In this document: positions 8,568 through 30,377 of the stretch, one piece after another | Numbering within the stretch: position 1 is the first letter of the stretch | Layout: every line of letters begins with the position of its first letter | DNA from: a virus | Taxonomy: Duplodnaviria; Caudoviricetes | DNA: 63,157 nucleotides | IMG/VR virus record: IMGVR_UViG_3300027804_000072 | Span: 1-63,157 of that record | Direction: 5' to 3' (one strand) | The notes under the pieces: generated by a model | Databases searched by the model: none | Seen by the model: the letters and a program-made list of their open reading frames with translations, nothing else | Told to the model about the DNA's origin: nothing | Program-made: the position numbers and the translations under genes

Positions 8568-8645
8568 GTTGTCATTGTACTTTCTTTAGTTCGTAGCCGC
8601 TGAGGTTGCGCCGACCCGGCCGTGAGGCCGAGCCGGCGTTTGCCG

Positions 8646-8798
8646 TCAGTAGCTCGAGTTCGAGAACTCGCGGCCGACGGCGATGACGCCCTTGATGAAC
8701 CGCGGTCCGGAGATGCGGCCGGAGCGGCGCTGCTTGTTGAGCGCCCTGAGTCGCTTGCCGGCGCGGATGATGTTTTTTGTGGTCAGTTTGGTTTCCAT
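8646..8798 (-). CDS. leaderless basic peptide
   Basis: METKLTTKN..., 50 aa; ATG 6 nt below the -10. Confidence 0.6.
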   Translation of the reverse strand: METKLTTKNIIRAGKRLRALNKQRRSGRISGPRFIKGVIAVGREFSNSSY

Positions 8799-8822
8799 GA
8801 GTTCATTATAACTTCTTTAGAA

Positions 8823-9509
8823 CTACGGAGCAACCTTCCCGTTGGCGATCCACGCTGCGTATGTGATCGGCATCTTCTCGGCGAACGACTTCTCGACCTC
8901 GAGCGCCAGATCACGGATCTCACGCTGCGCCGCTTCGTGCGTCCGCAACGACAAAAAGTTCATCAACGCCCGTGCGTTCACGGTCCAGTAGAACTCGGTG
9001 TACGTTCCGACCGGGACCGCTAGTCGAGCAAGTTCCTTGGCGATTCCCATCTCCACGAGTTTGGCGTACGCCGTGAACGCCGCGTCATACGCCTCCGCGA
9101 GGATCTCCTGTGCGTCAGCCGCGGTAGAAGCATCGACGGCCTCGAAGGTGTACGCGCCGGGTTTTCCAGTCTGCGTGCGCCAGTTACTCTCGGGCGGCAG
9201 ATACGCTTCAGCCGGCATCTCGGAGTAGCGACCGGAGAACTCGTTGAACGATCCGATTCGATGACGAAACCACTCGCGAGCGACGAAGATCGGGCAGCGA
9301 ACGTGAAAGCGAAACGAGTTGTGTTCGAACGGCGTCCCGTGGCGTTCCCGCATCAAGAAATTGATAAGACCCTTGTCAGCCTCGTTGATGAAGTCACGTC
9401 GCTTCCCGAACGACACGCGCGCTGAATTGACGACCGAAAGATCGTCTGCCATCGCCGCGTCGAGCGCGACAAAACTGCCGGCGTAGCTGAGTCCGTATTG
9501 TGTTTCCAT
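8823..9509 (-). CDS. thyX: flavin-dependent thymidylate synthase
   Basis: RHGTPFEH and ThyX motif RHRIGSFNEFSGRY. Confidence 0.95.
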   Translation of the reverse strand: METQYGLSYAGSFVALDAAMADDLSVVNSARVSFGKRRDFINEADKGLINFLMRERHGTPFEHNSFRFHVRCPIFVAREWFRHRIGSFNEFSGRYSEMPAEAYLPPESNWRTQTGKPGAYTFEAVDASTAADAQEILAEAYDAAFTAYAKLVEMGIAKELARLAVPVGTYTEFYWTVNARALMNFLSLRTHEAAQREIRDLALEVEKSFAEKMPITYAAWIANGKVAP

Positions 9510-9653
9510 TGTTTCCTTGCGTAGTAGTTATTGCACAGTCTTTAGTCGTTCAGTAGATGCCACGACCGAGCGCCGATCGTGTGGCACCACCGATGACCAG
9601 TGGCACGGCACACGGCGTCGAGTGCGTATCCGCCGGCGAGGCGAAGCAGGCGT

Positions 9654-9890
9654 CTAGCCCGCATACTCGAGATCCCACTGGCTCTCGAGGAATGACCAAA
9701 GTTCCGGCACAACTCCGTCGCGATCGCGGTAGAACGGGTCGAGTTGACCGCCGCGAATCTCTTCTGCGAGCTGTGGGCGTACCTTGGAGAGTACGTTGAA
9801 CAGCGCCTGTCCGTACCGCCACTCGTGGTAGCGCGCGATCTCTGGGACCGTACGCAGAAACTTCTCGTATGTGATGTTTTCGTTGGTCAT
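9654..9890 (-). CDS. leaderless hypothetical cassette protein
   Basis: WRYGQALFNVL...DPFY; starts 6 nt below the -10. Confidence 0.75.
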   Translation of the reverse strand: MTNENITYEKFLRTVPEIARYHEWRYGQALFNVLSKVRPQLAEEIRGGQLDPFYRDRDGVVPELWSFLESQWDLEYAG

Positions 9891-9908
9891 GTTATCATTA
9901 TACTTTCT

Positions 9909-10100
9909 TTAGATACCTAGTCGGCGTCGGATCTGTGACTTCAATCCGCGTTGTGGGATGTCGCGCAGTATCGCCTCGGCAATGTCCTTGACGATGTCGC
10001 CTCGAGACAGCTCTGGGTTCTCCTCGAGAGCCCAGGCGATCTCTTCCTCGATGTCCGCAAGCACGTCGTCCGCTTTTGCTTCGTGGATGTATTCGCTCAT
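9909..10100 (-). CDS. leaderless hypothetical cassette protein
   Basis: Runs repeat to repeat; stop TAA lies inside the next repeat. Confidence 0.75.
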   Translation of the reverse strand: MSEYIHEAKADDVLADIEEEIAWALEENPELSRGDIVKDIAEAILRDIPQRGLKSQIRRRLGI

Positions 10101-10131
10101 GGGTTCATTGTACTTTCTTTAGATGAGCGGA

Positions 10132-10269
10132 TCAGCCGCCCACTCGACCGCGACAGGCGCGCTTGTCGGCGAGACGCTTTTTGTTCGGGATCCGCTGTGC
10201 GCGAAGCCGGTTACCGTCGGCGAACGCCTGCCGCTCGAGTTCGTTCCACTTGTTCTTGATCTTTGTCAT
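10132..10269 (-). CDS. leaderless basic peptide (paralog of 19658..19804)
   Basis: MTKIKNKWNELERQAFADGNRLRAQRIPNKKRLADKRACRGRVGG. Confidence 0.7.
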   Translation of the reverse strand: MTKIKNKWNELERQAFADGNRLRAQRIPNKKRLADKRACRGRVGG

Positions 10270-10287
10270 GAAGTCATTATAACTTCT

Positions 10288-10482
10288 TTAGACTTCAGTG
10301 AAGTGTCCCTCGATCTCGACGACCTCGACAGAGTCGGGTTCGATCGAGCGATCGTTACGAAGGTCTGCCGCGACGCGGTACGCCTTCGCCTCGTTGTTGG
10401 TGTAGAACGACACCGGCCCTCCGACCGTATGACGATCGTCGTGGCGGCGATACCGCACCGCATATGTGATGTGAGTGGTCAT
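10288..10482 (-). CDS. hypothetical cassette protein
   Basis: SD GAAAGGACA; stop within repeat. Confidence 0.7.
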   Translation of the reverse strand: MTTHITYAVRYRRHDDRHTVGGPVSFYTNNEAKAYRVAADLRNDRSIEPDSVEVVEIEGHFTEV

Positions 10483-10548
10483 GTTTCTGTCCTTTCGTTA
10501 TGAGATGATTGTACTTTCTTTAGACTTCGCCGCTCGAGTGAGCGAGCG

Positions 10549-10680
10549 TCAGTCGGCGGTGACGAGCGCGTCGTAGCGATCGGCGGCGCAGTCGCAGCAG
10601 ATCGTTCGTTCGTCGTCGAGCGCGATCGTTTCGTTGACGGGAGTGGGCGCGTAGCAGTCGGTGCAGTTGATCGTTTCCAT
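10549..10680 (-). CDS. leaderless Zn-ribbon peptide
   Basis: METINCTDC...ICCDC. Confidence 0.6.
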   Translation of the reverse strand: METINCTDCYAPTPVNETIALDDERTICCDCAADRYDALVTAD

Positions 10681-10698
10681 GAGATCATTATAACATCT

Positions 10699-10908
10699 TT
10701 AGAATGGTTCGGACACGGGGACGTCACCGATGAACACGATCTCTGTCCAACCGCGTTCTAGGTTGAGTTCAGCGAACGTGTTTGCGTCGACGCGCGCTGA
10801 CCCGACGCTGTTCGCGACGATCTGAATCTTCACGACGTGGTCGGCGTGATCGAGATCGTCACCATAGACCGCGGCGAAGACGAAGTTGTATTGATCGTCG
10901 ATCTTCAT
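10699..10908 (-). CDS. hypothetical cassette protein
   Basis: MKIDDQ start overlaps the upstream stop (ATGA). Confidence 0.6.
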   Translation of the reverse strand: MKIDDQYNFVFAAVYGDDLDHADHVVKIQIVANSVGSARVDANTFAELNLERGWTEIVFIGDVPVSEPF

Positions 10909-11147
10909 GCGGCAGTCCTCGAGACGACGATCTCCTCCGCGGGGAACCATCCAGTCCAATTGGTCGTGGTTGAACTCACGAGAACAGCGTTGACGTGTTG
11001 ACCGATGTGCGGGAACAACGACACCGAGTCGATCTTCGTCACGATGAACGTCGGACCGTTCTCTTTCACTCGGTTCCGCGTCCGCTTCGACGCTGTCTGA
11101 CCGTTGATCTTCACGGTGATCGTTTCACCGATCTCGAGAGCGATCAT
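10905..11147 (-). CDS. hypothetical cassette protein
   Basis: ORF with ATGA-coupled start. Confidence 0.65.
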   Translation of the reverse strand: MIALEIGETITVKINGQTASKRTRNRVKENGPTFIVTKIDSVSLFPHIGQHVNAVLVSSTTTNWTGWFPAEEIVVSRTAA

Positions 11148-11251
11148 CGTTGATCGCCCTCTCGTCGCCCGCAGTCGACGCAGCGTCGGCAGTCGTCGTC
11201 GTTCGTGAAGATGTGGTCGTGGTTTTCGGTGTTGTTGTTCGTCGTTTCCAT
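11144..11251 (-). CDS. leaderless Cys-containing peptide
   Basis: METTNNN...CRRCVDC; ATG 6 nt below the -10. Confidence 0.5.
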   Translation of the reverse strand: METTNNNTENHDHIFTNDDDCRRCVDCGRREGDQR

Positions 11252-11274
11252 GAGTACATTATAACTTCTTTAGA

Positions 11275-11490
11275 TTACGACCACACCTCAGTCACCAACC
11301 AACCTTTCTTGGCGCAGTGATTGCGAAGGTTCGACCAGGTCGTCTCTTCGCACACCTCACCGGGAATGTCTCCGTACCATCCGGCGATGTATTCGTGGAT
11401 GTACTTTCCGGTCCGCGTATCGGTGATCGTCCAATACGGTTCTTCGGTCGTCGTGTGAATCGTTATCGTTACGTCTCGTGTCGTTTCCAT
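11275..11490 (-). CDS. leaderless hypothetical cassette protein
   Basis: ORF fills the inter-repeat interval. Confidence 0.7.
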   Translation of the reverse strand: METTRDVTITIHTTTEEPYWTITDTRTGKYIHEYIAGWYGDIPGEVCEETTWSNLRNHCAKKGWLVTEVWS

Positions 11491-11532
11491 GATGTCATTA
11501 TAACTTCTTTAGATCATCCCCGAAGGAGGGGG

Positions 11533-11733
11533 TCAGATGACCCCCACCTCGGCGAGAACTTCCTGCGCCATCTCGACGCCGAACTCCGCGGTCAGTTCCT
11601 CCGCGAGGTCGACCGAGTCGTCATCGAGACCCGTGTAGTAGAAGACGTCGTTGTTGTCCTCGTAGACCGCGTACACCGAATCCTCTGTGACCCAGATCGT
11701 TGCGGGACGGTTGTTGTGGGTTGTCGGGAACAT
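11533..11733 (-). CDS. acidic hypothetical cassette protein
   Basis: Repeat + SD + ORF. Confidence 0.7.
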   Translation of the reverse strand: MFPTTHNNRPATIWVTEDSVYAVYEDNNDVFYYTGLDDDSVDLAEELTAEFGVEMAQEVLAEVGVI

Positions 11734-11781
11734 TTTGTTTTCCTTTCGTCGCTGGTAAGATCATTATAACTTCTTTAGATC

Positions 11782-12159
11782 TCAGTTTTCGTTCACGATC
11801 GAACGGAACAGATCGTCCTCGACCGCTCGCTCTTCGACCCGCTCCTTCACGAACGCGATGAAGTCGTTGACCAGGTCTTCGTCGACCTCTTCGTCGACAT
11901 CCGCATCGAGATCGATCGGTCCCTCGACGATGTCCGCTCCCTGTGACCAGAGTTCCGCAAGACGTTCGGGGTCAATGGAGAACTCGAAGGCAAGACGACT
12001 GCTCACCGTATTGTACGGAATCATCTCGTTGGTCTCGGTGAAGTGCTGGATGATCTCGTATCGCAGCGCGTTCCAGTAGTGGTACAACTTCACCTTGTTC
12101 TCGTCCGCGAGCAGATCGCTCGAAGGAAGGAGGTCGAAGTCACTCATCGTCGCTTTCAT
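11782..12159 (-). CDS. acidic hypothetical cassette protein
   Basis: Repeat + SD + ORF. Confidence 0.75.
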   Translation of the reverse strand: MKATMSDFDLLPSSDLLADENKVKLYHYWNALRYEIIQHFTETNEMIPYNTVSSRLAFEFSIDPERLAELWSQGADIVEGPIDLDADVDEEVDEDLVNDFIAFVKERVEERAVEDDLFRSIVNEN

Positions 12160-12210
12160 GTTGTTTCCCTTCGTTGTGGTAAGATCATTATAACTTCTTT
12201 AGAACTGGAG

Positions 12211-12435
12211 TCAGTCCCTCCAGTCCTCGCGTTCGAAGTCGATCGATGCGGTGAACTCCTTACCGCAGTGTTCGCAGGTCCACTCGACCTCACCGCCGTA
12301 CCGCGAGTCGACGTCTGCCTCGATCTCGTTCGGACCGTCGCAGTGAGTGCAGCAGTCTTCCCAGGTGTGTGTGATGTCGTTCCACCCAGGGATGTCGCTC
12401 TCGTAGACTCCAGGGGGCATGTTGTATCCGCTCAT
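12211..12435 (-). CDS. Zn-ribbon cassette protein
   Basis: CTHC...CEHC. Confidence 0.7.
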   Translation of the reverse strand: MSGYNMPPGVYESDIPGWNDITHTWEDCCTHCDGPNEIEADVDSRYGGEVEWTCEHCGKEFTASIDFEREDWRD

Positions 12436-12530
12436 CGTGTTTCCTTTCGTATTGGTAAGATCATTATAACATCTTTAGAACGTTGGTTGGTCGATCGCTC
12501 TCTCAGGAGACGATTATCGACCGCACCGCG

Positions 12531-12794
12531 TTATTCAGCCCACTGCCAGGTTCCGTCCTCGAGAAGCGTGACGTTCGTCGGCGCAGAACACGAGTAGACG
12601 TTGACGATCTCTCCCGTGGCTGAATCCCACGTGAAGTCGCGGTTGAGGACGATGTTGCAGTCCTCGCGGTCGTCCTCGAGCGCAGCGACGACGTCCTGGA
12701 GAGCGATCACGCCGAGCGTCGCGAGAAACAGCGCCGCTGACCAGAAGACGAATCGCACTGCCGTGCGGACTCGGTAGTAAGTTTCGGTGTGCAT
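12531..12794 (-). CDS. membrane-anchored cassette protein
   Basis: N-terminal hydrophobic helix FVFWSAALFLATLGVIAL. Confidence 0.7.
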   Translation of the reverse strand: MHTETYYRVRTAVRFVFWSAALFLATLGVIALQDVVAALEDDREDCNIVLNRDFTWDSATGEIVNVYSCSAPTNVTLLEDGTWQWAE

Positions 12795-12833
12795 GTTTGT
12801 CCCTTCGTTGTTGGTAAGTTCATTATACTTTCT

Positions 12834-13019
12834 TTAGAAGTCGACTTGGTGGAGGACTTCAGCCTTCACCTCGTCGTCCTCGAGAGTCTCGAGAACGCCT
12901 GCGACGACCGCACGGTAATCTTCCATGTTGAATCCGTAAGGATCCTTGTCCGCAGCCACGCTCAACGCTTCTGCGATCTTCATCAGCGCCTCGACTGCCT
13001 CGTTTGACTGAATCTTCAT
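12834..13019 (-). CDS. hypothetical cassette protein
   Basis: Repeat + SD; stop within the next repeat. Confidence 0.7.
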   Translation of the reverse strand: MKIQSNEAVEALMKIAEALSVAADKDPYGFNMEDYRAVVAGVLETLEDDEVKAEVLHQVDF

Positions 13020-13081
13020 CGTTGTGTCCTTCCTTCGCTTGTAAGTACATTATAACTTCTTTAGTTCTGCGGCGCAGGACG

Positions 13082-13237
13082 TCAGTCGTAGATGTCTGCC
13101 TGCCACTGACGCTTCTCGATGGAGCGAAGCATGCGGTGGTAGTTATTCTTCCGCTTGCGTCGTCCCTTGGAGCGAAGCGAAGAGCAGCAGCTGTACGGGC
13201 AGTCCACGATCGCTCGGTTGTTGAACATCATTCCCAT
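13082..13237 (-). CDS. basic Cys-containing peptide
   Basis: MGMMFNNRAIVDCPYSCC...; preceded by a 12-codon leaderless uORF carrying AGAGGAAG. Confidence 0.5.
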   Translation of the reverse strand: MGMMFNNRAIVDCPYSCCSSLRSKGRRKRKNNYHRMLRSIEKRQWQADIYD

Positions 13238-13296
13238 CGCTATCTTCCTCTCTGTGTGAGTTCGTTGTACATGTTCATGAGTACATTATAACTTCT

Positions 13297-13881
13297 TTAG
13301 AACGGTTCGCACTCACGGACGAGGTCAGCCCACGACTTGCGTTGCGTCGACAGCCGCGCGCGAATCGTCGAGAGCAGAGGGACATCCGCACGCTCCCGCG
13401 ACCACGAATCGTACGCTGCCGGCGTAGGCGTCTCGTAGTTGCTGTACGCGCATCTGATGAAGTCTGTGAACGACGACCGCATCGACTCATCTGACCACTG
13501 CTTGAGGTCTCCACGCGCGAATCGCTTCTTTGTGGCGTAACCCGCTTCTTCTCGAGCGGCGTTCCACGAACCGAAGCGACGTATGATGAGAGCGAGTGAC
13601 GGCGTGTCTTCGCCCGACGCGGTTCGCCATTCGCGGTAACCCGCGGCTGTCGTGACTCTTGCGGTTTCTGCTGCTGTGACCGCGTTGATGATACTGGCGT
13701 CGTCGAACTTCTGCTGTCTCGAGCGGACGATGATCTGCTCATGTCGTCGAGAGCGGAGCAGGTCCTTGACTGTCTTGCTCGGGATCACGCCGGCGAAACT
13801 CTTCACCACCGCTCCGATGTTGCGTAGCGAGTTGAACTCCGCGTGTACCTTACTGATTGTTTCTTCGTCTGTGTGTTTCAT
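13297..13881 (-). CDS. homing-endonuclease-associated repeat-like DNA-binding protein
   Basis: Two repeats: Y..W.......PS...I.RRFGSWNAAREEAG and Y..W......P...I..R....SW. Confidence 0.65.
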   Translation of the reverse strand: MKHTDEETISKVHAEFNSLRNIGAVVKSFAGVIPSKTVKDLLRSRRHEQIIVRSRQQKFDDASIINAVTAAETARVTTAAGYREWRTASGEDTPSLALIIRRFGSWNAAREEAGYATKKRFARGDLKQWSDESMRSSFTDFIRCAYSNYETPTPAAYDSWSRERADVPLLSTIRARLSTQRKSWADLVRECEPF

Positions 13882-13910
13882 GTCTTTCCTTTGTTGTCAT
13901 TATACTTTCT

Positions 13911-14123
13911 TTAGTTGGCTGGCGGCGTCGACATCTCGTTGACCGCGTCCTTGATCTTCTTGATGTCGGAGTTCTTCGACGCCATGACGTCGTTGAGAAA
14001 CCTCCGCACGATGGTCGGTTTCACTCCTGCCTTCTTCGCGACTGCCTCGACGCCGAGCGTGCGAATCTTGTCCGCGTAGTCGTCGAGCGAGTTCGTCACG
14101 ATGTTGGGGTTGAGTCCCTTCAT
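13911..14123 (-). CDS. XRE-like HTH protein
   Basis: GVEAVAKKAGVKPTIVRRFL. Confidence 0.6.
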   Translation of the reverse strand: MKGLNPNIVTNSLDDYADKIRTLGVEAVAKKAGVKPTIVRRFLNDVMASKNSDIKKIKDAVNEMSTPPAN

Positions 14124-14221
14124 TGGTTTTCCTTCCTTGTTGGTAAGAACATTATAACTTCTTTAGAACTCGAGGCCGGCCGGCTGGCGCGTGAGCGCGC
14201 AGCCGGACGGTGGTGAGCCGG

Positions 14222-14401
14222 TCAGTCGGCCGGATCGTAGTCGTAGTCGATGCAGTCGAGACAGAGGTCGATGCTGAGGGGGCCGAAGTCGGAGTCGCAG
14301 GTGAAGACGTTGGCGACGGTGTCGCAGTTTTCGCAGCGAGCGTCGGCGTCGGCGAGGACGGAGTTGAATTTGGCGTTTTGGAGTTTTGCTGGCTTGGTCA
14401 T
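14222..14401 (-). CDS. leaderless Zn-ribbon peptide
   Basis: MTKPAK...CENC...CLDC. Confidence 0.6.
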   Translation of the reverse strand: MTKPAKLQNAKFNSVLADADARCENCDTVANVFTCDSDFGPLSIDLCLDCIDYDYDPAD

Positions 14402-24528: not shown

Positions 24529-24702
24529 TCAGAGACCCAGGGCGGCGCGAAGGCGACGGGCGTCGTTCGGCGAGAGGCCGTCGACGAAGATGACGGCGGC
24601 CGCCATGTCCGCCACTGTCTCGTCCAGTGCCTCTCCGGAGTACTCCTCTTTGCACTGACTGATGATGTCTCGGGCGAGTCGTTTGATGTCGTTGTTGGTC
24701 AT
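24529..24702 (-). CDS. cassette protein (paralog of 17623..17808)
   Basis: DIISQCKEEY...DETVADM. Confidence 0.75.
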   Translation of the reverse strand: MTNNDIKRLARDIISQCKEEYSGEALDETVADMAAAVIFVDGLSPNDARRLRAALGL

Positions 24703-24750
24703 TGCGTGTCCTTTCGTTGGTGGTGAAGTCATTATAACTTCTTTAGAAAC

Positions 24751-25053
24751 TCAGACTGCGGCTCCATCGATCCGACGTGCATTGGCCGGCAGCGCGATCC
24801 CACGCTGAGTCATGCCGGCGATCTCCTCGTCGTCGAAGTACTCGGCGCCGTAGAAGTGGGAATGGCCAGCGGCGCATTCCCAGCCTTCGTCGGTGCGAGT
24901 GACATCGGCGCCACATTCGCTGATCAGATCGCTGGGCGAATCGGGGTACCACCCGAAGTCGGGGTCAGAGGCGTAGGCCTCGTCCACCCAGCGCGGGGTT
25001 CCGTGGATGAGCCACGTGCAGGCGTTCATTTGGTGTCCTTTCGTTGTTTCCAT
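24751..25053 (-). CDS. hypothetical Cys/His cassette protein
   Basis: Leaderless MET start plus internal SD start MNACT; ECG...WECAAGH. Confidence 0.7.
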   Translation of the reverse strand: METTKGHQMNACTWLIHGTPRWVDEAYASDPDFGWYPDSPSDLISECGADVTRTDEGWECAAGHSHFYGAEYFDDEEIAGMTQRGIALPANARRIDGAAV

Positions 25054-25124
25054 GAGTGCATTATAACGTCTTTAGAACGGTACCCGTCTGCTAGGAATCA
25101 ACTGCCTAGCAGGCCGGACATCGC

Positions 25125-25301
25125 TCAGGGACATCTATAGAAGTTCTGCCGCTTATGCTCGACGTAGGGGCGATGGCAACGGAAGCATCGATCGGCTTGC
25201 TGCTTACGAGTCAATCGCTCGTCACGCTCCTGCTGCACCTCGTCTTTGTTGTTGCGCCGCTTGCCAAGTTTGTAGGCAGCTATGATAGTTAGTAGTCCCA
25301 T
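25125..25301 (-). CDS. leaderless small protein
   Basis: MGLLTIIAAY...CFRC. Confidence 0.55.
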   Translation of the reverse strand: MGLLTIIAAYKLGKRRNNKDEVQQERDERLTRKQQADRCFRCHRPYVEHKRQNFYRCP

Positions 25302-25376
25302 GCAGTCATTATACATTCTTTAGAAAGGCATCCGTCTGCAACTCTGGTCTTCTACCAGGCCGGACTTGAGATTGGA

Positions 25377-25425
25377 GCCGGTCCGGGGCGCGGAAAGGAC
25401 AAGAATACGCTAACCCCGGACCGGC
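25377..25425 (-). terminator. hairpin with anti-SD loop
   Basis: GCCGGTCCGGGG / CCCCGGACCGGC; loop contains plus-strand GAAAGGACAA. Confidence 0.65.
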
Positions 25426-25440
25426 GAACCCAGGCCTCTC

Positions 25441-27243
25441 TCAGCTTGCCGCTGAGAGGGCCTTCACAGCCGCTGCACCGATAGCCTTGGCTGAACCCTT
25501 GAGGTCCAGGTCAAGGATCTCCATGGCGGCCTTGGTGTTCTTCAGCAGGCTCGCCGCTGTGGGCTGGGCACCGTACGTACTCGGGAACGACAGCCACACG
25601 ACGGCGACACCGTTCTGCTCGCACGCGGCGACCCACTTGCGGACAGCCGACTTCTCGTGATCGGGGTACTCGCCGTCGCTGACGACGACGAGCAACCGAG
25701 CACCCGAGCCGTTGAGCAGATTGAGCCCACCGTCAAGTGCCTTGAACGCTCGGTCGAACTTCTCGGTCATGTCCGGCGCGGTGAACACGCGAACGCGGTC
25801 GAGATGCTGACCAGGCTTGAGCGTCGGGAAGACGTCGTTGCCGAAGTACACCATCGCTGAACGACCCTGCACTCGACGCGTCGCCTCGCTGAGCACCCAC
25901 GCGAGTGAAGCCATCGGCTCCATCGCGCCGCCCATCGAGCCGCTGATGTCGACCATCACGCCGATGTTGAGCGTCGGGTCGTCGACGTGCTTGCGCTTCG
26001 TCTGACGCCACGGCTCGCTCTTCGTCATGATGCCCTTGCTCTTGAGAGCGACACCCTGCACCGCAGCGCGAGTGCGCAGACGCCCGGGAGGGATCTCCGA
26101 GGTGACTTCGGTCTCGTCACGATCGCGATACTTCGCCTTCTCGAGAAGCTGCGCGAGCTGCACCGCAGCGACTCGTTCGTCGCCGCGCGGTGCGCGCTCT
26201 TCGTTCAGCCTCGAGTACGACGTCGTTGTCGGCATCTCGGATGTCCCTGAACCGAACACCTTCACTGCCTCGTTGCGTGCCTCCTGCGCAGTCTTCGCCG
26301 CGTTCTGCTTGGCGCTGACCTGCTCGGCCCACTCCTCAGACATCTGAACGTCTGCGAGGTCGCCGAACGCTCCGATGAGAGCGGATTCAGCACCTTCCTC
26401 GAGAGCCTTGGCAAGCGCCTCGGCGAACTCGGACGGAGTCATGCCTGCGCCGTCTCCGCCCTGCGCCTGGTCGGGCGTAGGGTCGCCGTTCTCTTCAGCA
26501 GCCTCGGTGACGATGCGCACCCACTCCTTAGCGAGCGGGTACATACCTTCAGCGACGCTGTGCTGATCGTAGCGCTGCGCCTCGAGCCAGACCTGACGGA
26601 GCGCCTCGAGACGAGAAGCACCGAGCTTCGACTCGATGACGTCGTGCAGTTCGCACACGTCGCTCTCGTCGCAGGACCCGGCGTCGACGCGGGCAAGCGT
26701 CAGAGCAGCGATGTCGGCTGCCATGACGGTGTCCGAGTCTGACTGAACGTTCGCCACATCTGAGATGACGAGGTCGAGCACGGTCGATCGCAGGAACGCC
26801 GCGTTGTTCGGGAAGCGCTCGAGACCGTGACTCTCGATGCGACCTTCCTCGAGCATGACGAGTGCACGGAACTCAGCAGGCGACAGGTCTTTCTGCGCCG
26901 GCTCGAGTTCCCACTGCGAGAAGCGTGCGTGCATCGCCTCGTGGAAGATTGCTCCGGTAGCACGAGGAAACTCGTACTGCACTTCGCGGTCCGAGATGTC
27001 GCCGACCTCCGCCGGCGAGACGTCGTCGCCAAAGCACTTCTCGACGTTGACCTCGACCTCCGCGGTGTGCGGATTGAAGAACGCAGGGTGACCCTCGGCG
27101 GCGTTCGGACCAGCGAACGCTGCGACGTCGAAGCGACCTGCCCACGAGTTCACCATCTTGCCGATGGCTGCACTCACGCCAAGCCACTCGGGGTGGCTGA
27201 CGCTCGGCGTGGTCTTCTTCTTAGAATAGTTGAATTGTCCCAT
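25441..27243 (-). CDS. VWA-domain protein with N-terminal HExxH motif (CobT-like MoxR partner)
   Basis: MIDAS DISGSM...T...VVSDG; HEAMH..E. Confidence 0.85.
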   Translation of the reverse strand: MGQFNYSKKKTTPSVSHPEWLGVSAAIGKMVNSWAGRFDVAAFAGPNAAEGHPAFFNPHTAEVEVNVEKCFGDDVSPAEVGDISDREVQYEFPRATGAIFHEAMHARFSQWELEPAQKDLSPAEFRALVMLEEGRIESHGLERFPNNAAFLRSTVLDLVISDVANVQSDSDTVMAADIAALTLARVDAGSCDESDVCELHDVIESKLGASRLEALRQVWLEAQRYDQHSVAEGMYPLAKEWVRIVTEAAEENGDPTPDQAQGGDGAGMTPSEFAEALAKALEEGAESALIGAFGDLADVQMSEEWAEQVSAKQNAAKTAQEARNEAVKVFGSGTSEMPTTTSYSRLNEERAPRGDERVAAVQLAQLLEKAKYRDRDETEVTSEIPPGRLRTRAAVQGVALKSKGIMTKSEPWRQTKRKHVDDPTLNIGVMVDISGSMGGAMEPMASLAWVLSEATRRVQGRSAMVYFGNDVFPTLKPGQHLDRVRVFTAPDMTEKFDRAFKALDGGLNLLNGSGARLLVVVSDGEYPDHEKSAVRKWVAACEQNGVAVVWLSFPSTYGAQPTAASLLKNTKAAMEILDLDLKGSAKAIGAAAVKALSAAS

Positions 27244-27301
27244 GATTTGTCCTTTCGATATGTGGTGGTGAGTTCATTATACTTTCTTTAGATTCTGCAT
27301 T

Positions 27302-27332
27302 GGCGGGCCAGCCCACCACAGACTGGCCCGCC
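27302..27332 (-). terminator. hairpin after the AAA gene
   Basis: GGCGGGCCAG / CTGGCCCGCC. Confidence 0.6.
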
Positions 27333-27341
27333 GCAGGGCTG

Positions 27342-28352
27342 TCAGACCTTGGAAGGCAGACAGGGCTCGCCGAACACTCGAGAGAGCACGTCGGCGACGA
27401 CCGGACGATCGATCTCCGGCGCGGCCGCCAGCAGATTGCTGATGGCGAACTTGGTGCCGAAGGTCGTCGAGATGTCGCGGAACGCCAGGAGCTCGCGCAT
27501 CTGCGGGGCCCACGAGACCTCGCTGGACTGCTGCTTCTTGCTCAGGTTCTGAGCTGCGGTCACGACGGTGGTCGGAGCACCGAGCTTACGCGCCAGCGCC
27601 CAGTCGGTCGTCCACTCGGTGTGGATGGCGAACCGAGACAGAAGAGCCTCGGACAGCCGCACGCCGGGAGCGTTCGGGTTGGTCGCCGCGATGACGTAGA
27701 AGCCAGGCGCCGCCTTGACGGTGCCACGCTCCGGATTCGCCGTCACGGTGTACTCCTGACGACCGTCCATGAGGCCGTACACGATGGAGAGCACCTTCGT
27801 GTCGATGAGACCGATCTCGTCGATGAGCAGCGTGCCGCCGGCTTCCGCCGCCTTGAGCAGCGGCCCATCTTCCCAGATGAACGAGCCACTCGGCGTCTGA
27901 ACGTAGCCGCCGACCAGGTCGGACACCTCGGTGTCGCCCGAGCCGAGCACGGTGAAGAACCCGCCGGGCTGGTCGCAGAACGCTGCCTCGACGGCAGCAG
28001 TCTTGCCGCAGCCGGGAGCTCCGTAGAGAAGAGCGTACTGGCGCTTCTCACGAGCGGTGCGAAGAACCTGGATGTCGTCGTGCTCGCCCCACTTGCGGGT
28101 GTAGTACACGTCGCCGTTGGGTCGGACGAACTTGGCATCTGCCTTCATCGCATCGGTGGTAGTCATCGGCACGGGCTTCTTCTCCTTGGCCTTGCGCGGC
28201 GCGACTGCGCGACCGGCAGCATTTGTCATCGCTGACATTCTACCGTACGCTTCGGAGTCGAAAGACTGCGACATGACGTCGGCAAGCGCCGGCATGATTC
28301 CGGGCCCGAGCTTCGAAACTGTGGCACTGACTGAGTATGTGGTGGTGGTCAT
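27342..28352 (-). CDS. MoxR/CbbQ/CobS-type AAA+ ATPase
   Basis: GAPGCGKT, LLIDEI, IAATNP, EALLSRF. Confidence 0.9.
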   Translation of the reverse strand: MTTTTYSVSATVSKLGPGIMPALADVMSQSFDSEAYGRMSAMTNAAGRAVAPRKAKEKKPVPMTTTDAMKADAKFVRPNGDVYYTRKWGEHDDIQVLRTAREKRQYALLYGAPGCGKTAAVEAAFCDQPGGFFTVLGSGDTEVSDLVGGYVQTPSGSFIWEDGPLLKAAEAGGTLLIDEIGLIDTKVLSIVYGLMDGRQEYTVTANPERGTVKAAPGFYVIAATNPNAPGVRLSEALLSRFAIHTEWTTDWALARKLGAPTTVVTAAQNLSKKQQSSEVSWAPQMRELLAFRDISTTFGTKFAISNLLAAAPEIDRPVVADVLSRVFGEPCLPSKV

Positions 28353-28402
28353 TTGTTTAGTCCCTTCGTTGTGGTGGTAAGTTCATTATACTTTCTTTAG
28401 AA

Positions 28403-28930
28403 TCAGAGCACGGTCGTGGCCGGATGAGGCCGAAGCTCGGCGACGTACTCCGTCGGAAAGCCGAGAGCCTTGCGCGCCTTCCAGATGCGACCCAGCAACT
28501 TGTACGGGGTCTTTCCCGCGGCGATGTCGTCCATGTCGGTGGCGACGACCTCGACGGAGACCGGGACCTTGAACAGCGTGTACGAGTTCTTAGCCAGCGA
28601 CTCGAAGACCTTGTCGATCGAGTTCAGCATCGAGTCCGTCACGATGCGATTCTTATCGCTGGTCGAAAGCGAGCTCATGACCGTGCCGGCGGGGACGGCG
28701 GAAGCGTAGACGGACGCCAGCCGGGTAGCGCGTATCTGCGCCCACTGCTTGCGAAGAGCGCCGGTAGCAAGACGACGACGGTAGACGCACACGGGCACGG
28801 TGTTGCCGTTGCTGACTTCAGCCTCCGGAGTGATGATGAGTTGTGTGGTGTAGTTGTGGGTCGCAGTCGTGCGAACGAACTCGAAGTAGAGCGCGTGGCC
28901 GACGACCATGGGGTTGTTTGTAGATGTCAT
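28403..28930 (-). CDS. hypothetical protein
   Basis: MTSTNN after SD. Confidence 0.75.
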   Translation of the reverse strand: MTSTNNPMVVGHALYFEFVRTTATHNYTTQLIITPEAEVSNGNTVPVCVYRRRLATGALRKQWAQIRATRLASVYASAVPAGTVMSSLSTSDKNRIVTDSMLNSIDKVFESLAKNSYTLFKVPVSVEVVATDMDDIAAGKTPYKLLGRIWKARKALGFPTEYVAELRPHPATTVL

Positions 28931-29061
28931 TTGGTTTGTCCTTTCGGTTTGTGGTGGTGAAGACATTATAACGTCTTTAGAAATGAAGCCGGCGGGAGGA
29001 GGTGTATAGGGACACCTCGCTCCCACCGACGTCTCACAGCGCGAACGCTCGGGGGCTTGAG

Positions 29062-29391
29062 CTACTTCGTCTGGAGAATGGTGTACGGCGTCTGCACGTA
29101 CGTCGCCTCGAAGGCTTCGGGGAAGCCGGTCTTGAGAAGATCGCGGTCGATCTTGCTCGTGACCCTCGAGACGATGCGCACGCGCTCGACACCGTTGATC
29201 GTGCCGACCTCGGCGTCACCGAGCATCTCGCGGAGAGCTGCCTCGGCTTCGGCCTTCTTGCCTTCGAGGGCCTTGATCGCTGCCTTCGCGTCGTTGAACG
29301 CGACGATCAGCGCCTCGGCCGACTCATCGAGCAGGGCGGTTTCTTCGGTGACGGCGACCTTGGTCGTCGTGGTGGTGGTGGCGGTAGCCAT
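29062..29391 (-). CDS. hypothetical coiled-coil phage protein
   Basis: Repeat + SD + ORF. Confidence 0.75.
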   Translation of the reverse strand: MATATTTTTTKVAVTEETALLDESAEALIVAFNDAKAAIKALEGKKAEAEAALREMLGDAEVGTINGVERVRIVSRVTSKIDRDLLKTGFPEAFEATYVQTPYTILQTK

Positions 29392-29454
29392 TGTACTGTC
29401 CTTTCGTCGTTCCAGCGGTTGCTGGTGAGTTCATTATAACGTCTTTAGATTTGA

Positions 29455-29715
29455 CTACATCTGCCCATCGACCCAGAGTCCTGGGAAGATCAGAGGCGCG
29501 ATGCAGTCGATACAAACCGGCCATACCTCTTCTTCAAGAGACATGGTAGATCCGTATAGGACAGCACACGGGACGAACACGTCGTCCAGTGGCCCAACGC
29601 TCAGACCACAGTTTTCACACTCAGTAGCGCCAATGGCGAAGTCAAAGATTCCGGCATTGGCGCTCTTGAGCGCGTCTTCTGCTGACTCGATCATGTAGAG
29701 GTCGTATGACTTCAC
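29455..29715 (-). CDS. Zn-ribbon protein
   Basis: CENC...CIDC; GAGG SD. Confidence 0.6.
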   Translation of the reverse strand: MKSYDLYMIESAEDALKSANAGIFDFAIGATECENCGLSVGPLDDVFVPCAVLYGSTMSLEEEVWPVCIDCIAPLIFPGLWVDGQM

Positions 29716-29738
29716 GACCTCAATCTATCAGGGTCGTC

Positions 29739-30260
29739 TCAGCTAAGGATCTTCTTGATCGAGGAAAGCTGCGCCTCGAGCTCGGCGATTCGGAGCTTGA
29801 GATTGAACACCTCGAGGCTGTCCGTCTGCATCGTCGTTGCCTTACCAGGCCGGACAGTCTTCTTGGTGCTCTTCTTTCGCTGCTGGTACGCGTTGTATCC
29901 GGCGCGGCGTGCTGCCTTTCCAAGCGAGCTGACGTCGATTCCGGAGAACACGGCAGACGACTTACGAGCCGGAAGCTCGGGACCGCCGGCCCAGTACAGG
30001 CGAACGCCGTAGTGATACGCGATCGCTCCACGGGCAACCGTATCTTCCTTGTTCTCGAGACGTGAGAACACTGTTCCCTGACTCTCGAGTAGCTGCAGCA
30101 CGGAGTGCACGTGAGACGTCGTGTACTTGACTCCACGCTTCGCGTTGATCTGCTCGGCGATCTCTCGAGCCGTCACGGGCTCGGTCGCTCCACGAAGAGC
30201 GTCGAGGATGATCTTTCGAGTCGCCTCGCCTTTGTGCAGAATTGCATTCTGGTATGTCAT
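29739..30260 (-). CDS. winged-helix DNA-binding protein
   Basis: IILDALRGATEPVTAREIAEQI...VHSVLQLLESQGTV. Confidence 0.7.
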   Translation of the reverse strand: MTYQNAILHKGEATRKIILDALRGATEPVTAREIAEQINAKRGVKYTTSHVHSVLQLLESQGTVFSRLENKEDTVARGAIAYHYGVRLYWAGGPELPARKSSAVFSGIDVSSLGKAARRAGYNAYQQRKKSTKKTVRPGKATTMQTDSLEVFNLKLRIAELEAQLSSIKKILS

Positions 30261-30377
30261 TGTTTTCCGTCCTTTACGGTGTTGGTAAGTTCATTATAAC
30301 CGCTTTAGATTCGGTTGTCATGAACTATTATAAATTTCCCGGTGAGCCGGTAAGTTCATTATAATTGCTTTAGAAAC

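What the first reader, a model, noticed from the sequence alone, without database searches (positions are those of the whole stretch)
8573..30374. ~22-kb array of ~59 self-promoted mini-gene cassettes delimited by one 18-bp direct repeat
Seen: TCTAAAGAAGTTATAATG (variants ...GATGTTATAAT, ...AAAGTATAAT, ...AGATACAAT) recurs about 59 times, all in one orientation. Nearly every interval holds one ORF, mostly 35-170 aa and unrelated to its neighbours. The repeat is followed either by a conserved leader (ACC-A/C-rich-ACGAAAGGACA-N-ATG) or directly by ATG. Known precedents for repeat-headed phage genes are the T4-type PeSL cassettes and the SAS/ESAS motifs of cluster K mycobacteriophages, but this motif is different and very dense. 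Inference: a modular host-takeover/anti-defence gene library in which the repeat is both promoter and recombination homology for cassette gain, loss and shuffling, i.e. an integron-like array without IntI.
Basis: partly seen in the sequence, partly recalled or inferred. Interest (0 to 1): 0.93.

Follow-up and report, generated by a model that had tools for sequence, protein, structure and literature searches.

The report
Promoter-per-gene shuffling array in an actinophage
An uncultured phage of freshwater actinobacteria carries about 60 tiny genes, each behind its own copy of one 17-base promoter-like repeat, and comparison with relatives shows that these repeats are where genes are gained, lost and moved.

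Summary
The motif TCTAAAGAAGTTATAAT occurs 59 times within 8573-30374 and 64 times in the window, always on the minus strand (chance about 0.01).

It looks like an actinobacterial -10-only promoter:
- the hexamer is TATAAT or TACAAT;
- nothing is conserved at -35;
- an A sits 7 nt downstream in 51 of 58 copies.

In 57 of 64 copies an ORF starts at a fixed place. It follows either a GAAAGGA leader or an ATG exactly 6 nt after TATAAT (leaderless). The ORFs are real genes (pN/pS 0.18) and mostly orphans.

The motif is conserved in relatives, including Actinomycetia phage DSL-LC01, where 34 of 35 forward-strand hits lie in the 21 kb before the terminase gene.

Against close relatives, 22 of 24 indel junctions fall in the repeat. 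Recombinant copies are left/right chimeras, crossover points differ, and one cassette has changed slot. Distant relatives share cassettes in scrambled order.

This is an analogue of the T4-type PeSL regulatory cassettes in an actinophage. It works by homologous recombination, not integron-like site-specific recombination. Promoter activity and any host-takeover role remain untested.

By-products: a covarying 274-nt non-coding RNA cassette and a second oriented bipartite repeat.

The parts
4578..30374 (-). The whole array of motif-headed cassettes. The dense part is 8574-30374. Transcription runs towards the terminase gene.
   Evidence: First base of each 17-mer on the minus strand: 30374, 30309, 29449, 28981, 28401, 27292, 25324, 25076, 24747, 24513, 24037, 23695, 23248, 22665, 22087, 21511, 21234, 21155, 20832, 20360, 20158, 20050, 19827, 19662, 19280, 18949, 18675, 18335, 18091, 17854, 17621, 17324, 16942, 16740, 16497, 16294, 15975, 15767, 15523, 15131, 14870, 14425, 14167, 13915, 13301, 13065, 12838, 12479, 12203, 11779, 11513, 11274, 10703, 10524, 10292, 10123, 9913, 8821, 8590, 7685, 5355, 4594. 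There are 0 hits on the plus strand.
18075..18091 (-). Example of the leadered class. The motif is followed by GATCTTATCAACAAAACGAAAGGACACCAA and then an ATG (62-aa ORF, 17859-18044).
   Evidence: In all, 42 of 64 copies have GAAAGGA (up to 1 mismatch) and a start codon 17-47 nt after TATAAT.
8805..8821 (-). Example of the leaderless class. TATAAT is followed by 6 nt and then an ATG (50-aa ORF, 8649-8798).
   Evidence: There are 13 leaderless copies, and 12 of them have the start codon exactly 6 nt after the hexamer.
23679..23695 (-). Chimeric motif copy TCTAGAGAAAGTATAAT, left at the site where relative G001 carries an extra 253-bp cassette.
   Evidence: G001 has TCTAGAGAAGTTACAAT and TCTAAAGAAAGTATAAT flanking the cassette. 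The window copy has the left copy's position 5 and the right copy's positions 10-11 and 14, so the crossover lies within motif positions 6-9.
19828..20050 (-). A 223-bp cassette (54-aa ORF) that is present in the window and absent from four relatives.
   Evidence: The same deletion allele is seen in G001, L133, L135 and L179, with junctions 0 to +20 from a motif start.
13066..13301 (-). A cassette that occupies a different slot in relative L188.
   Evidence: In L188 this cassette sits between the sequences that correspond to window 16720 and 16502, where it replaces the window's 16740 cassette. It is missing from its window position. All four junctions are within 21 nt of a motif start.
25441..28352 (-). 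CobT-like (600 aa) and CobS-like AAA (336 aa) genes. Each is headed by the motif, and both belong to the syntenic upstream block.
29742..30374 (-). The first cassette: tandem promoters at 30374 and 30309, then a 173-aa winged-helix protein that is conserved in all three lineages.
   Evidence: HTH_12, E 6e-5.
17325..17598 (-). A cassette that holds a structured non-coding RNA in place of an ORF.
   Evidence: MFE is -129.4 kcal/mol with z -4.6. There is no Rfam match at E up to 1. The stretch is 100% identical in G001, while the flanking blocks are 95-97% identical. Compensatory changes occur at 14 of 78 pairs, and 94.8% of cells are paired against 34-48% when the partners are slid.
21156..21234 (-). 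An ORF-less promoter unit: an ATACAAT variant followed by a 55-nt hairpin transcript. Similar units lie at 20051-20158 and 30310-30374.
   Evidence: The unit is conserved at 88-100% in 9 relatives.
16757..31059 (-). Ten copies of a second oriented bipartite repeat, CCGGCCTG-N16-18-GCAGACGG. They lie at 16757-16788, 16958-16990, 20369-20400, 21519-21550, 25084-25117, 25332-25363, 29822-29853, 30635-30666, 30885-30916 and 31026-31059.
   Evidence: Six copies end 5-15 nt before a promoter motif and four lie inside ORFs. Chance expectation is 0.
4605..7662 (-). The syntenic downstream block with few motifs. It includes an HslV-like peptidase (6013-6603) and WhiB (5735-5992).
1497..2918 (-). The terminase large subunit, which lies immediately downstream of the array.
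   Evidence: Terminase_6N/6C; 83.5% identical to DSL-LC01 TerL.
51988..52677 (+). A small serine recombinase (230 aa), the only site-specific recombinase found. It lies about 22 kb from the array.
   Evidence: Resolvase, E 8e-35. No tyrosine recombinase was found in 0 of 4 records.

Best explanation
The window is about half of the genome of an uncultured, DSL-LC01-like phage of freshwater actinobacteria.

How each cassette is expressed (inferred from geometry, not shown experimentally). In front of the terminase gene lies a hyperplastic region in which almost every small gene is its own transcription unit. The 17-bp repeat is a strong promoter read by the host's primary-sigma RNA polymerase. 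It has a -10 hexamer TATAAT, a G at -14 or TG at -15/-14, no -35, and an extra conserved block TCTAAAGA at about -23 to -16. Transcription would start at the conserved A 7 nt after the hexamer. That A is either the first base of an ATG (a leaderless mRNA) or the start of a roughly 25-nt leader carrying a strong GAAAGGA ribosome-binding site. About half of the units end in a GC-rich stem-loop just before the next promoter. These stem-loops probably insulate the units, but that is also inferred.

How the cassettes move (shown by comparison). The promoter plus leader forms 20-70 bp of near-identical sequence in direct orientation every 275 bp or so. General or phage-encoded homologous recombination between copies deletes, inserts, replaces and relocates single cassettes in register. 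Each cassette always carries its own expression signals. This is the mechanism proposed for PeSL cassettes of T4-type phages, here in an unrelated phage and host group.

The function of the cargo is unknown.
For: Promoter geometry:
- The hexamer is TATAAT in 52 and TACAAT in 6 of 58 copies. G follows it in 54 of 58 and A is at +7 in 51 of 58.
- Information content is about 0 upstream of the block, so there is no -35.
- In the leaderless class the ATG is exactly 6 nt after the hexamer in 12 of 13 copies, and these genes have no ribosome-binding site.
- In M. smegmatis a TANNNT motif lies 7-12 bp upstream of mapped start sites and no -35 is found (PMC5741613, passage).

Conservation:
- Strict-pattern copies are all on one strand: 45 in G001, 26 in G002, 22 in G003 and 18 in DSL-LC01.
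- In the complete DSL-LC01 genome, 34 of 35 forward-strand hits lie at 22.6-43.3 kb, before TerL.
- No sigma region 2 and no T7-type RNA polymerase were found in 4 records.

The ORFs are coding: in 39 ORF pairs, differences by codon position are 48/50/168 and pN/pS is 0.18.

Stem-loops: the 60 nt upstream of the motifs fold at -23.9 against -15.7 kcal/mol for controls, P 1e-13.

Recombination:
- 22 of 24 junction records have the left block ending +17 to +58 after a motif start and the right block starting -15 to +1 from one. By chance 20% of positions qualify, giving P 8e-14.
- In 14 of 15 events the single copy matches the left repeat upstream and the right repeat downstream. The informative crossover intervals need at least three different points.
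- The J3 allele is seen in 4 contigs and one insertion in 2 contigs.
- One cassette changed slot in L188.
- One slot has three alleles.
- Neighbouring copies are more alike than distant ones: 0.80 against 0.74, 0 of 5000 permutations.

Shuffling at depth:
- 389 motif-headed ORFs fall into 129 families.
- Window against G002: 16 shared families and 3 shared adjacencies. Window against DSL-LC01: 13 shared families and 0 shared adjacencies. The flanking blocks stay syntenic.

Recombination machinery: DSL-LC01 is annotated with a RecA-like recombinase, a RuvC-like resolvase and a PD-(D/E)XK nuclease.
Against: - There is no transcript evidence: no RNA run was listed.
- The consensus two-hexamer scan found only 6 minus-strand sites in the array (15 on both strands), against about 58 motif copies. 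Canonical U-tract terminators are not enriched (11 found, 18 expected). Terminator function of the stem-loops is therefore unproven.
- The conserved TCTAAAGA block sits where host sigma factors are not known to read sequence. This hints at an additional factor or a different polymerase.
- All relatives are metagenome assemblies. Events seen in one contig (for example the L188 relocation) could be assembly chimeras at 20-60-bp repeats.
- Selection for viable whole-cassette indels could enrich repeat-bounded junctions even if breaks were random.
- Two of 24 junction records are not at a motif: a 152-bp deletion at a 12-nt microhomology, and a 163-bp indel outside the array.
Confidence: 0.78

Rival explanations
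1. The 17-bp block is read by something other than the bare host holoenzyme. One possibility is a phage-encoded or virion-delivered RNA polymerase with a contiguous T7-style promoter that starts at the G after TATAAT. Another is the host enzyme redirected by a phage factor that binds TCTAAAGA. The recombination role would be unchanged.
For: - A contiguous, strongly conserved 17-18-bp block followed by G in 54 of 58 copies resembles single-subunit polymerase promoters (recalled).
- TCTAAAGA is as conserved as the hexamer, at about 2 bits per position, and is kept in all lineages.
- The motif is confined to one region of the complete genome, as expected for one temporal class.
- DSL-LC01 has a 3289-aa virion-module protein with no Pfam hit above its cut-off and no PDB hit.
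- WhiB and a winged-helix protein are conserved in or next to the array.
Against: - No PF00940 match in 4 records. However, the control genomes were also silent, so this is weak evidence.
- No sigma region 2.
- The right half is a perfect host-type -10, and its variation (T/C at position 3) is the kind tolerated by primary sigma factors.
- The 6-nt spacing to the ATG fits a start at the A of the ATG. A start at the G would leave a 6-nt leader with no ribosome-binding site.
Confidence: 0.12
2. The conserved left half is chiefly an operator for a phage repressor. It would resemble the asymmetric, one-orientation stoperators of cluster A mycobacteriophages and would silence the whole array at once.
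For: - The site is asymmetric, always in one orientation relative to transcription, and sits in short intergenic gaps that often overlap stop codons. The TAA of the motif is the stop codon of the upstream ORF in 9 of 57 cassettes.
- DSL-LC01 was called lysogenic by software (PMC10611076, passage).
Against: - Each site carries a -10 hexamer at a fixed distance from the start codon.
- Sites are confined to one region, not spread over the genome.
- No repressor or integrase was identified. There is no tyrosine recombinase, and the serine recombinase is only 230 aa.
- No array was found in 185,579 representative genomes: 56 hits, all single-copy.
- This role could coexist with promoter function.
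Confidence: 0.05
3. The repeat is a site for site-specific recombination. The array would be integron-like in the strict sense, with the small serine recombinase at 51988-52677 playing the part of IntI.
For: - Whole cassettes are exchanged in register at the repeat.
- A conserved resolvase-type recombinase exists in the window and in DSL-LC01.
Against: - Informative crossover intervals are motif positions 1-9, 6-9, 10 to +23, +20 to +25 and about +58. At least three different points are therefore needed.
- The 17-mer has no dyad symmetry (read directly from the sequence).
- The recombinase lies about 22 kb away.
- Every cassette has its own promoter.
- Junction homology extends into the leaders and the first codons.
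Confidence: 0.03
4. The cassette differences are assembly artefacts: short-read assemblers jumping between repeat copies or between co-occurring strains.
For: - All relatives are metagenome contigs.
- Many contigs end at or near repeats.
- Junction identities are 20-61 bp.
Against: - The same alleles recur in independent contigs: J3 in 4 and one insertion in 2.
- Inserted cassettes carry unique ORFs that are absent from the window.
- The scrambled order also holds against DSL-LC01, whose authors report PCR checking (PMC10611076, passage).
- The chimeric motif at 23695 needs a join inside 4 bases.
Confidence: 0.03

Closest known systems
PeSL (promoter-early stem-loop) regulatory cassettes of T4-type myoviruses. 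Sources: Arbiol et al. 2010, PMC2839356 (abstract and sections 13 and 16 read); Comeau et al. 2014, PMC4122927 (abstract read).
   Same: - A repeated promoter-containing motif, with a ribosome-binding site at its 3' end, lies in front of orphan genes in hyperplastic regions.
- Stem-loops accompany many copies.
- Differences between close relatives are whole-gene indels bounded by the motif, and the junction copies are chimeric.
- Homologous exchange is the proposed mechanism.
   Different: - The phage and host groups are unrelated: this is a siphovirus-like actinophage whose TerL is nearest to those of Microbacterium and Gordonia phages.
- The promoter has no -35 and no AT-rich upstream element, but has a conserved TCTAAAGA block instead.
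- There are two translation modes, including leaderless.
- Density is much higher: about 59 copies in 22 kb, against about 50 in a T4-type phage genome.
- Canonical terminators are not detected.
- Promoter and terminator activity and mini-circles have been shown for PeSLs but not here.
Start-associated sequences (SAS/ESAS) of cluster K mycobacteriophages (PMC3203893, passages) and of Microbacterium cluster EF phages (PMC7302621, passages).
   Same: - A conserved, one-orientation motif lies at the ribosome-binding site of many unrelated genes in actinophages.
- The EF consensus GGGAAAGGACCCC shares GAAAGGAC with the leader found here.
   Different: - SAS are 13 bp, occur in 10-19 copies, sit at the ribosome-binding site and have no assigned promoter.
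- Here the main repeat lies 17-47 nt upstream of the start, holds a -10 hexamer, heads about 60 genes, and also serves genes with no leader at all.
- No recombination role has been reported for SAS in the passages read.
Stoperators of cluster A mycobacteriophages (recalled; mentioned in a passage of PMC3203893).
   Same: They are asymmetric sites of about 13 bp, in one orientation relative to transcription, in short intergenic gaps.
   Different: Stoperators are repressor sites without promoter features and are spread over the genome (recalled). The sites here are promoter-shaped and confined to one region.
Integron cassette arrays (recalled).
   Same: They are a linear array of small, mostly unrelated single-gene cassettes in one orientation, with high turnover.
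   Different: - There is no IntI and no attC-like inverted repeats.
- There is no single shared promoter.
- Crossover positions vary.

Membership tests
PeSL cassettes (T4-type phages) | The repeated motif contains a host sigma-70-type promoter | tested here: inconclusive
   The -10 hexamer is perfect in 52 of 58 copies. No -35 or AT-rich upstream element is conserved, and the two-hexamer scan found only 6 minus-strand sites in the array. This fits actinobacterial -10-only promoters (PMC5741613) but not the E. coli-type consensus that defines PeSLs.
PeSL cassettes (T4-type phages) | A stable stem-loop is part of the motif and acts as a terminator or attenuator | tested here: inconclusive
   Upstream regions are more structured than controls, and 45% fall below the control 10th percentile. 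U-tract terminators are not enriched. Function was not tested.
PeSL cassettes (T4-type phages) | The motifs are concentrated in hyperplastic regions in front of orphan genes | tested here: met
   In DSL-LC01, 34 of 35 forward-strand hits lie in 16% of the genome. Of 60 array proteins, 54 have no Pfam family. There are 129 families, 53 of them singletons, among 389 ORFs.
PeSL cassettes (T4-type phages) | Indels between close relatives are bounded by the motif and leave a chimeric copy | tested here: met
   22 of 24 junction records qualify, and 14 of 15 events show left/right chimerism.
PeSL cassettes (T4-type phages) | The phage belongs to the T4 superfamily | tested here: not met
   The closest TerL matches are DSL-LC01 (83.5%), Microbacterium phages (about 61%) and Gordonia phages (about 49%). 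DSL-LC01 is annotated with a tape measure protein and a major tail protein.
PeSL cassettes (T4-type phages) | Excised mini-circles are formed | not testable with these tools
   No sequencing run was listed, so no reads could be laid.
Integron | An adjacent IntI tyrosine recombinase | tested here: not met
   PF00589 matched 0 of 4 records, while the control rang in 14 of 14 genomes.
Integron | Exchange at a fixed point in attC-type imperfect inverted repeats | tested here: not met
   At least three different crossover positions are needed. The motif has no dyad symmetry (read from the sequence).
Integron | Promoterless cassettes expressed from one common promoter | tested here: not met
   Each cassette carries its own promoter-like copy.
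SAS/ESAS (cluster K, cluster EF) | A conserved 13-bp motif at the ribosome-binding-site position a few bases before the start codon | tested here: inconclusive
   The leader element GAAAGGA(C) occupies that place in 42 of 57 cassettes that have an ORF. The defining 17-mer, however, is upstream and promoter-shaped, and 13 cassettes have no leader.
Stoperators (cluster A) | Repressor-binding sites dispersed through the genome with a cognate repressor | tested here: not met
   The sites are confined to the array. No repressor was identified, and binding was not testable.

The most novel reading that the evidence does not exclude
The array is a dedicated cassette-exchange platform rather than a passive by-product of strong promoters.

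On this reading, the TCTAAAGA half-site is read by a phage-specific factor or polymerase. That would make any incoming cassette that carries the repeat instantly expressible in this phage lineage only. Cassettes would move between slots and between co-infecting phages as excised repeat-bounded circles. The cassettes include non-coding RNA cassettes and the second bipartite hairpin element.

This would be a homologous-recombination analogue of an integron, at a density of one promoter per gene, which I found described nowhere in the searches run.
Probability: 0.15. Interest if true: 0.75.

Novelty: new variant of a known kind. Interest (0 to 1): 0.55.

Why it matters
Phage genomes hold huge numbers of small orphan genes, and how these are acquired and kept expressible is still poorly documented outside T4-type phages.

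This case offers an unusually clean natural record in an unrelated actinophage lineage. A single short promoter/leader repeat heads about 60 genes. The comparison with relatives maps repeat-bounded gains, losses and replacements, one three-allele slot and one relocation, with crossovers placed to within a few bases.

It suggests that promoter-mediated cassette shuffling is a convergent and general solution.

It also provides:
- a compact candidate strong promoter, with leadered and leaderless variants, for high-GC Gram-positive hosts;
- a defined set of fast-turnover genes to screen for host-takeover or counter-defence activity;
- two unexplained RNA-level elements.

Tried and rejected
RNA evidence. 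The look-up of sequencing runs (kind rna) listed no RNA holder for window 12000-21900. Read laying was therefore not used, and reads showing repeat-to-repeat deletions or circles could not be sought.

Consensus scans. The two-hexamer promoter scan and the U-tract terminator scan were of little use for this promoter type.

Cultured relatives. The left arms of Microbacterium phage A3Wally (27 kb) and Gordonia phage GodonK (23 kb) have similar runs of tiny genes before TerL but 0 motif hits. Their genes mostly overlap as operons.

Cellular genomes. Scanning 185,579 genomes gave 56 single-copy hits, about the chance number, and no array.

Tandem duplication as the origin of the array was rejected: there are only 3 paralogous pairs among 60 proteins.

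A recombinase inside the array was rejected. The PHROG 'RecE-like' hit is a 109-aa protein that matches only the last quarter of the profile.

A virion RNA polymerase was not supported. The 3289-aa DSL-LC01 protein has no Pfam hit above its cut-off and no PDB hit. This does not exclude one.

The structured RNA. There is no Rfam family. nhmmer found no further homologues in the held loci. A pattern scan of viral contigs found only G001. A covariance model was not built because its length would exceed the time limit.

Literature:
- The motif strings appear in no relevant paper: 8 papers were listed, none holds either 17-mer, and none concerns phages.
- The DSL-LC01 paper has 0 occurrences of 'promoter' or 'repeat'.
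- Among the listed papers that use 'PeSL' for phages, all concern T4-like myoviruses, cyanophage or Vibrio phages (30 of 536 listed, mostly unrelated acronyms).
- One broad search returned only primer matches.
S10 Fig of PMC7302621 and the PeSL supplements, which may show comparable repeats, were not seen.

Full report
**Observation**

The 18-mer TCTAAAGAAGTTATAATG with up to 3 mismatches occurs 58 times in the window. Every copy is on the minus strand, against 0.01 expected. With the 17-mer and up to 4 mismatches there are 64 minus-strand copies and none on the plus strand. The median spacing is 275 bp, and 53 of 58 spacings are 600 bp or less.

The window is a virus record estimated to be 47% complete.

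**Anatomy of a unit**

Information content is about 2 bits per position across t-TCTAAAGA and TATAAT, about 1 bit at the three bases between them, and about 0 upstream. No -35 element is conserved.

Among the 58 copies in the dense part:
- the hexamer is TATAAT in 52 and TACAAT in 6;
- the three bases before it are AGT, TGT, CGT or GGT in 41, so G sits at -14 in 41 copies, and TG at -15/-14 in 11;
- G follows the hexamer in 54;
- A is at the seventh base after it in 51.

In DSL-LC01 the consensus is TCTAAAGaTGTTATAaT, a classical extended -10.

Downstream, 57 of 64 copies have an ORF of 20 aa or more at a stereotyped place:
- 42 have GAAAGGA (up to 1 mismatch) and a start codon 17-47 nt after the hexamer;
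- 13 have a start codon directly after the hexamer, exactly 6 nt in 12 of 13;
- 2 fit both patterns.

In 9 cassettes the TAA inside the next motif is the stop codon.

The leaderless class is the strongest argument for a promoter. These genes have no ribosome-binding site and can only be translated if the mRNA begins at the ATG. That ATG is where a -10 hexamer ending at -7 would place the start. In M. smegmatis a TANNNT motif lies 7-12 bp upstream of mapped starts and no -35 is found (PMC5741613, passage).

**The ORFs are genes**

In 39 equal-length ORF pairs between the window and its 96%-identical relative G001, differences fall 48/50/168 by codon position, and pN/pS is 0.18.

Sixty array proteins have a median length of 76.5 aa and a median pI of 4.9. 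Only 3 pairs are paralogous. Only 6 hit a Pfam family: ThyX, WhiB, DUF7717, WGR, HNH_repeat and a winged helix. PHROGs adds an HslV-like peptidase. Nothing supports or excludes a host-takeover or counter-defence role.

**Stem-loops**

The 60 nt upstream of the motifs fold more stably than 500 control windows (-23.9 against -15.7 kcal/mol, P 1e-13), and 45% fall below the control 10th percentile. U-tract terminators are not enriched (11 found, 18 expected). Actinobacterial terminators often lack U tracts; this is recalled, not tested.

**Relatives and distribution**

The only hit in the phage collection is Actinomycetia phage DSL-LC01 (129 kb).

Exact-motif scans found three viral contigs with many copies and many metagenome contigs. 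Strict-pattern counts (forward/reverse) are G001 45/0, G002 26/0, G003 22/0 and DSL-LC01 18/0. G003 is 99.9% identical to G002 and was not used further.

In the complete DSL-LC01 genome, 34 of 35 forward-strand hits lie at 22.6-43.3 kb, just before TerL at 44,078. The motif therefore marks one region and probably one temporal class.

The paper describing DSL-LC01 does not mention promoters or repeats (PMC10611076).

By TerL, the closest cultured phages are Microbacterium phages such as A3Wally (about 61%) and Gordonia phages such as GodonK (about 48%). Their left arms also hold 60-70 tiny genes before TerL. Those genes are largely overlapping, and there are 0 motif hits.

No array occurs in 185,579 representative genomes.

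**Who reads the motif**

- No sigma region 2 was found in the window, G001, G002 or DSL-LC01.
- A region-4-like helix-turn-helix occurs only in G002.
- No PF00940 polymerase was found, but the control genomes were silent too.

The host primary-sigma holoenzyme is the simplest reader. The conserved TCTAAAGA block at about -23 to -16 remains unexplained. Candidates for a factor that binds it are the conserved WhiB (5735-5992), the winged-helix protein of the first cassette (29742-30260), or an unrecognised polymerase.

**Recombination test against close relatives**

Against G001 there are six indels of 150 bp or more in the aligned 25 kb. Five are whole cassettes with both ends in the motif plus leader.

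With further metagenome relatives, restricted to blocks at least 90% identical and at least 200 bp long, there are 24 junction records. In 22 the left block ends +17 to +58 after a motif start and the right block begins -15 to +1 from one. Such positions make up 20% of the array, giving P 8e-14 for the records.

By my hand count, records that share coordinates collapse to 19 events, 17 of them at a motif. The binomial was also run for 15 of 17 (P 3e-9).

The two exceptions are:
- a 152-bp deletion in the window near 13265, flanked by a 12-nt microhomology, which removes a CxxC mini-ORF that G001 keeps;
- a 163-bp indel outside the array.

**Crossover mapping**

For 15 events, one search compared the two flanking copies with the single copy in the genome that lacks the cassette. 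In 14 the single copy matches the left copy upstream and the right copy downstream. The fifteenth has a different upstream neighbour.

The informative intervals are:

| Crossover interval (relative to motif start) | Events |
|---|---|
| Motif positions 1-9 | three events |
| Positions 6-9 | J2, the chimeric copy at 23695 |
| Position 10 to +23 | J3 |
| +20 to +25 | one event |
| About +58, inside the first codons | J1 |

At least three different crossover points are needed. This fits homologous exchange, not a fixed-site recombinase.

No tyrosine recombinase is present. The only site-specific recombinase is a 230-aa resolvase-type protein about 22 kb away. DSL-LC01 is annotated with a RecA-like recombinase, a RuvC-like resolvase and a PD-(D/E)XK nuclease.

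**Particular cases**

- The slot at window ~24037 has three alleles: empty (window), a 347-bp cassette (G001), and a 243-bp cassette (L174 and L179) that is 82% like the window cassette at 16740.
- The 223-bp cassette at 20050-19828 is missing from four contigs.
- In L188 the cassette from window 13301-13066 sits in the slot of the 16740 cassette and is absent from its own slot.
- Adjacent motif-plus-13-nt segments are more alike than non-adjacent ones (0.80 against 0.74; 0 of 5000 permutations). This is as expected if copies spread or are homogenised locally.

**Deeper comparison**

One search collected 389 motif-headed ORFs from the window, G001, G002, the DSL-LC01 array and metagenome loci of 3 kb or more. 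Loci shorter than 3 kb and the duplicate pieces of G001 were left out. The ORFs form 129 families, 53 of them singletons.

| Comparison | Shared families | Shared strict adjacencies |
|---|---|---|
| Window vs G001 | 44 | 38 |
| Window vs L189+L123 | 23 | 9 |
| Window vs G002 | 16 | 3 |
| Window vs DSL-LC01 | 13 | 0 |

(Counts.) The flanking blocks (window 32205-25441 and 6938-1042) stay collinear.

**Caveats**

- All relatives except DSL-LC01 are short-read metagenome contigs. Single-contig events could be chimeras at the 20-61-bp junction identities.
- Selection against partial-gene indels would also enrich whole-cassette events, although it would not by itself produce in-register chimeric motifs.
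- Promoter and terminator activities are inferred.

**Comparison with known systems**

The closest precedent is the PeSL system. PeSLs are repeated early promoters with stem-loops and a ribosome-binding site, placed in front of orphan genes in hyperplastic regions. They show motif-bounded indels, chimeric junction copies and proposed mini-circles (PMC2839356, sections 13 and 16; PMC4122927, abstract).

The present array works like a PeSL system but is not a member of it:
- the phage is not T4-like;
- there is no -35 or AT-rich element;
- canonical terminators are not seen.

The leader resembles the start-associated sequences of Microbacterium cluster EF phages, whose consensus GGGAAAGGACCCC shares GAAAGGAC (PMC7302621, passage). 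It also resembles those of cluster K (PMC3203893, passages). Those are sites at the ribosome-binding site, of unknown role, in 10-19 copies.

Repeated intergenic regions are also mentioned for a cluster DR Gordonia phage (PMC9302106, search-listing abstract only).

I therefore rate this a new variant of a known kind.

**By-products**

1. The cassette at 17621 has no ORF but a 274-nt RNA (17325-17598, minus strand):
   - MFE is -129.4 kcal/mol, z -4.6;
   - there is no Rfam match;
   - it is 100% identical in G001 and L122, where the flanking blocks are about 95-97% identical;
   - homologues at 93% and 74% identity give 14 of 78 pairs with compensatory changes, and 94.8% of cells paired against 34-48% in slid controls.
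   - Only five sequences were available, and the structure was derived from them.

2. A bipartite repeat, CCGGCCTG-N16-18-GCAGACGG, occurs 10 times, all on the minus strand (0 expected).
   - Six copies lie just before promoters, and four lie inside ORFs in different frames.
   - It is kept in G002, including inside the orthologous genes, although those proteins are only 40% and 26% identical.

3. Three ORF-less promoter units are conserved in relatives.

Noticed in passing
window 17325-17598 (-): A promoter-headed cassette holds a 274-nt structured RNA with a roughly 26-bp closing helix instead of an ORF. It has no Rfam family. It is identical in G001, where the flanks differ by about 3-5%. 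Compensatory changes occur at 14 of 78 pairs across five sequences.
   Followed up: partly
window 16757-31059 (-), ten sites listed under parts: A second oriented bipartite repeat, CCGGCCTG-N16-18-GCAGACGG, has pairing flanks and often an inner GGCC-loop-GGCC hairpin. Six copies lie just upstream of promoters. Four lie inside the winged-helix and endolysin-like ORFs in different frames. It is conserved at the orthologous places in G002 despite 26-40% protein identity. In all, 44 distinct copies were seen in 9 sequences. Its function is unknown.
   Followed up: partly
window 21156-21234, 20051-20158, 30310-30374 (-): Promoter copies (two with the weaker ATACAAT hexamer) are followed by 41-84 nt without an ORF and then by the next promoter. 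They are conserved at 83-100% in relatives. The 21234 unit folds into a 55-nt hairpin with one apparent C-G to U-A change. They may be small RNAs or attenuators.
   Followed up: partly
window ~13230-13301 (-): A 152-bp deletion relative to G001, flanked by a 12-nt imperfect direct repeat just after a leaderless ATG, removed a CxxC mini-ORF and left a 12-codon stub. It is the only array indel that is not at the motif.
   Followed up: yes
window 34158-34701 (-): Three tRNA genes (Thr-TGT, Arg-TCT, Ile-TAT) lie just upstream of the array, with two degenerate motif copies at 34151 and 34722.
   Followed up: no
window 51988-52677 (+); DSL-LC01 2068-2754: A conserved 230-aa resolvase-type serine recombinase is present. 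It may be why software called DSL-LC01 lysogenic. It is too short for a large serine integrase (recalled). No array-bearing prophage was found in 185,579 genomes.
   Followed up: partly
L230 8801-18667 (DSL-LC01 52800-62669): A 3289-aa ORF lies between the portal/MuF-like genes and the capsid protease. It has no Pfam hit above its cut-off and no PDB sequence match.
   Followed up: partly
L049 (A3Wally 1-27000), L050 (GodonK 1-23000): Cultured relatives by TerL also have 60-70 tiny genes before the terminase. These are mostly overlapping, partly on the other strand, and lack the motif. The per-gene promoter therefore looks like an innovation of the DSL-LC01-like lineage.
   Followed up: partly
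window 8826-9509, 25441-28352, 42265-44310, 53041-55668: Recognisable genes in the window are ThyX (inside the array, without its own motif), a CobT/CobS-like pair, a class II ribonucleotide reductase and a primase-polymerase/D5 helicase.
   Followed up: no
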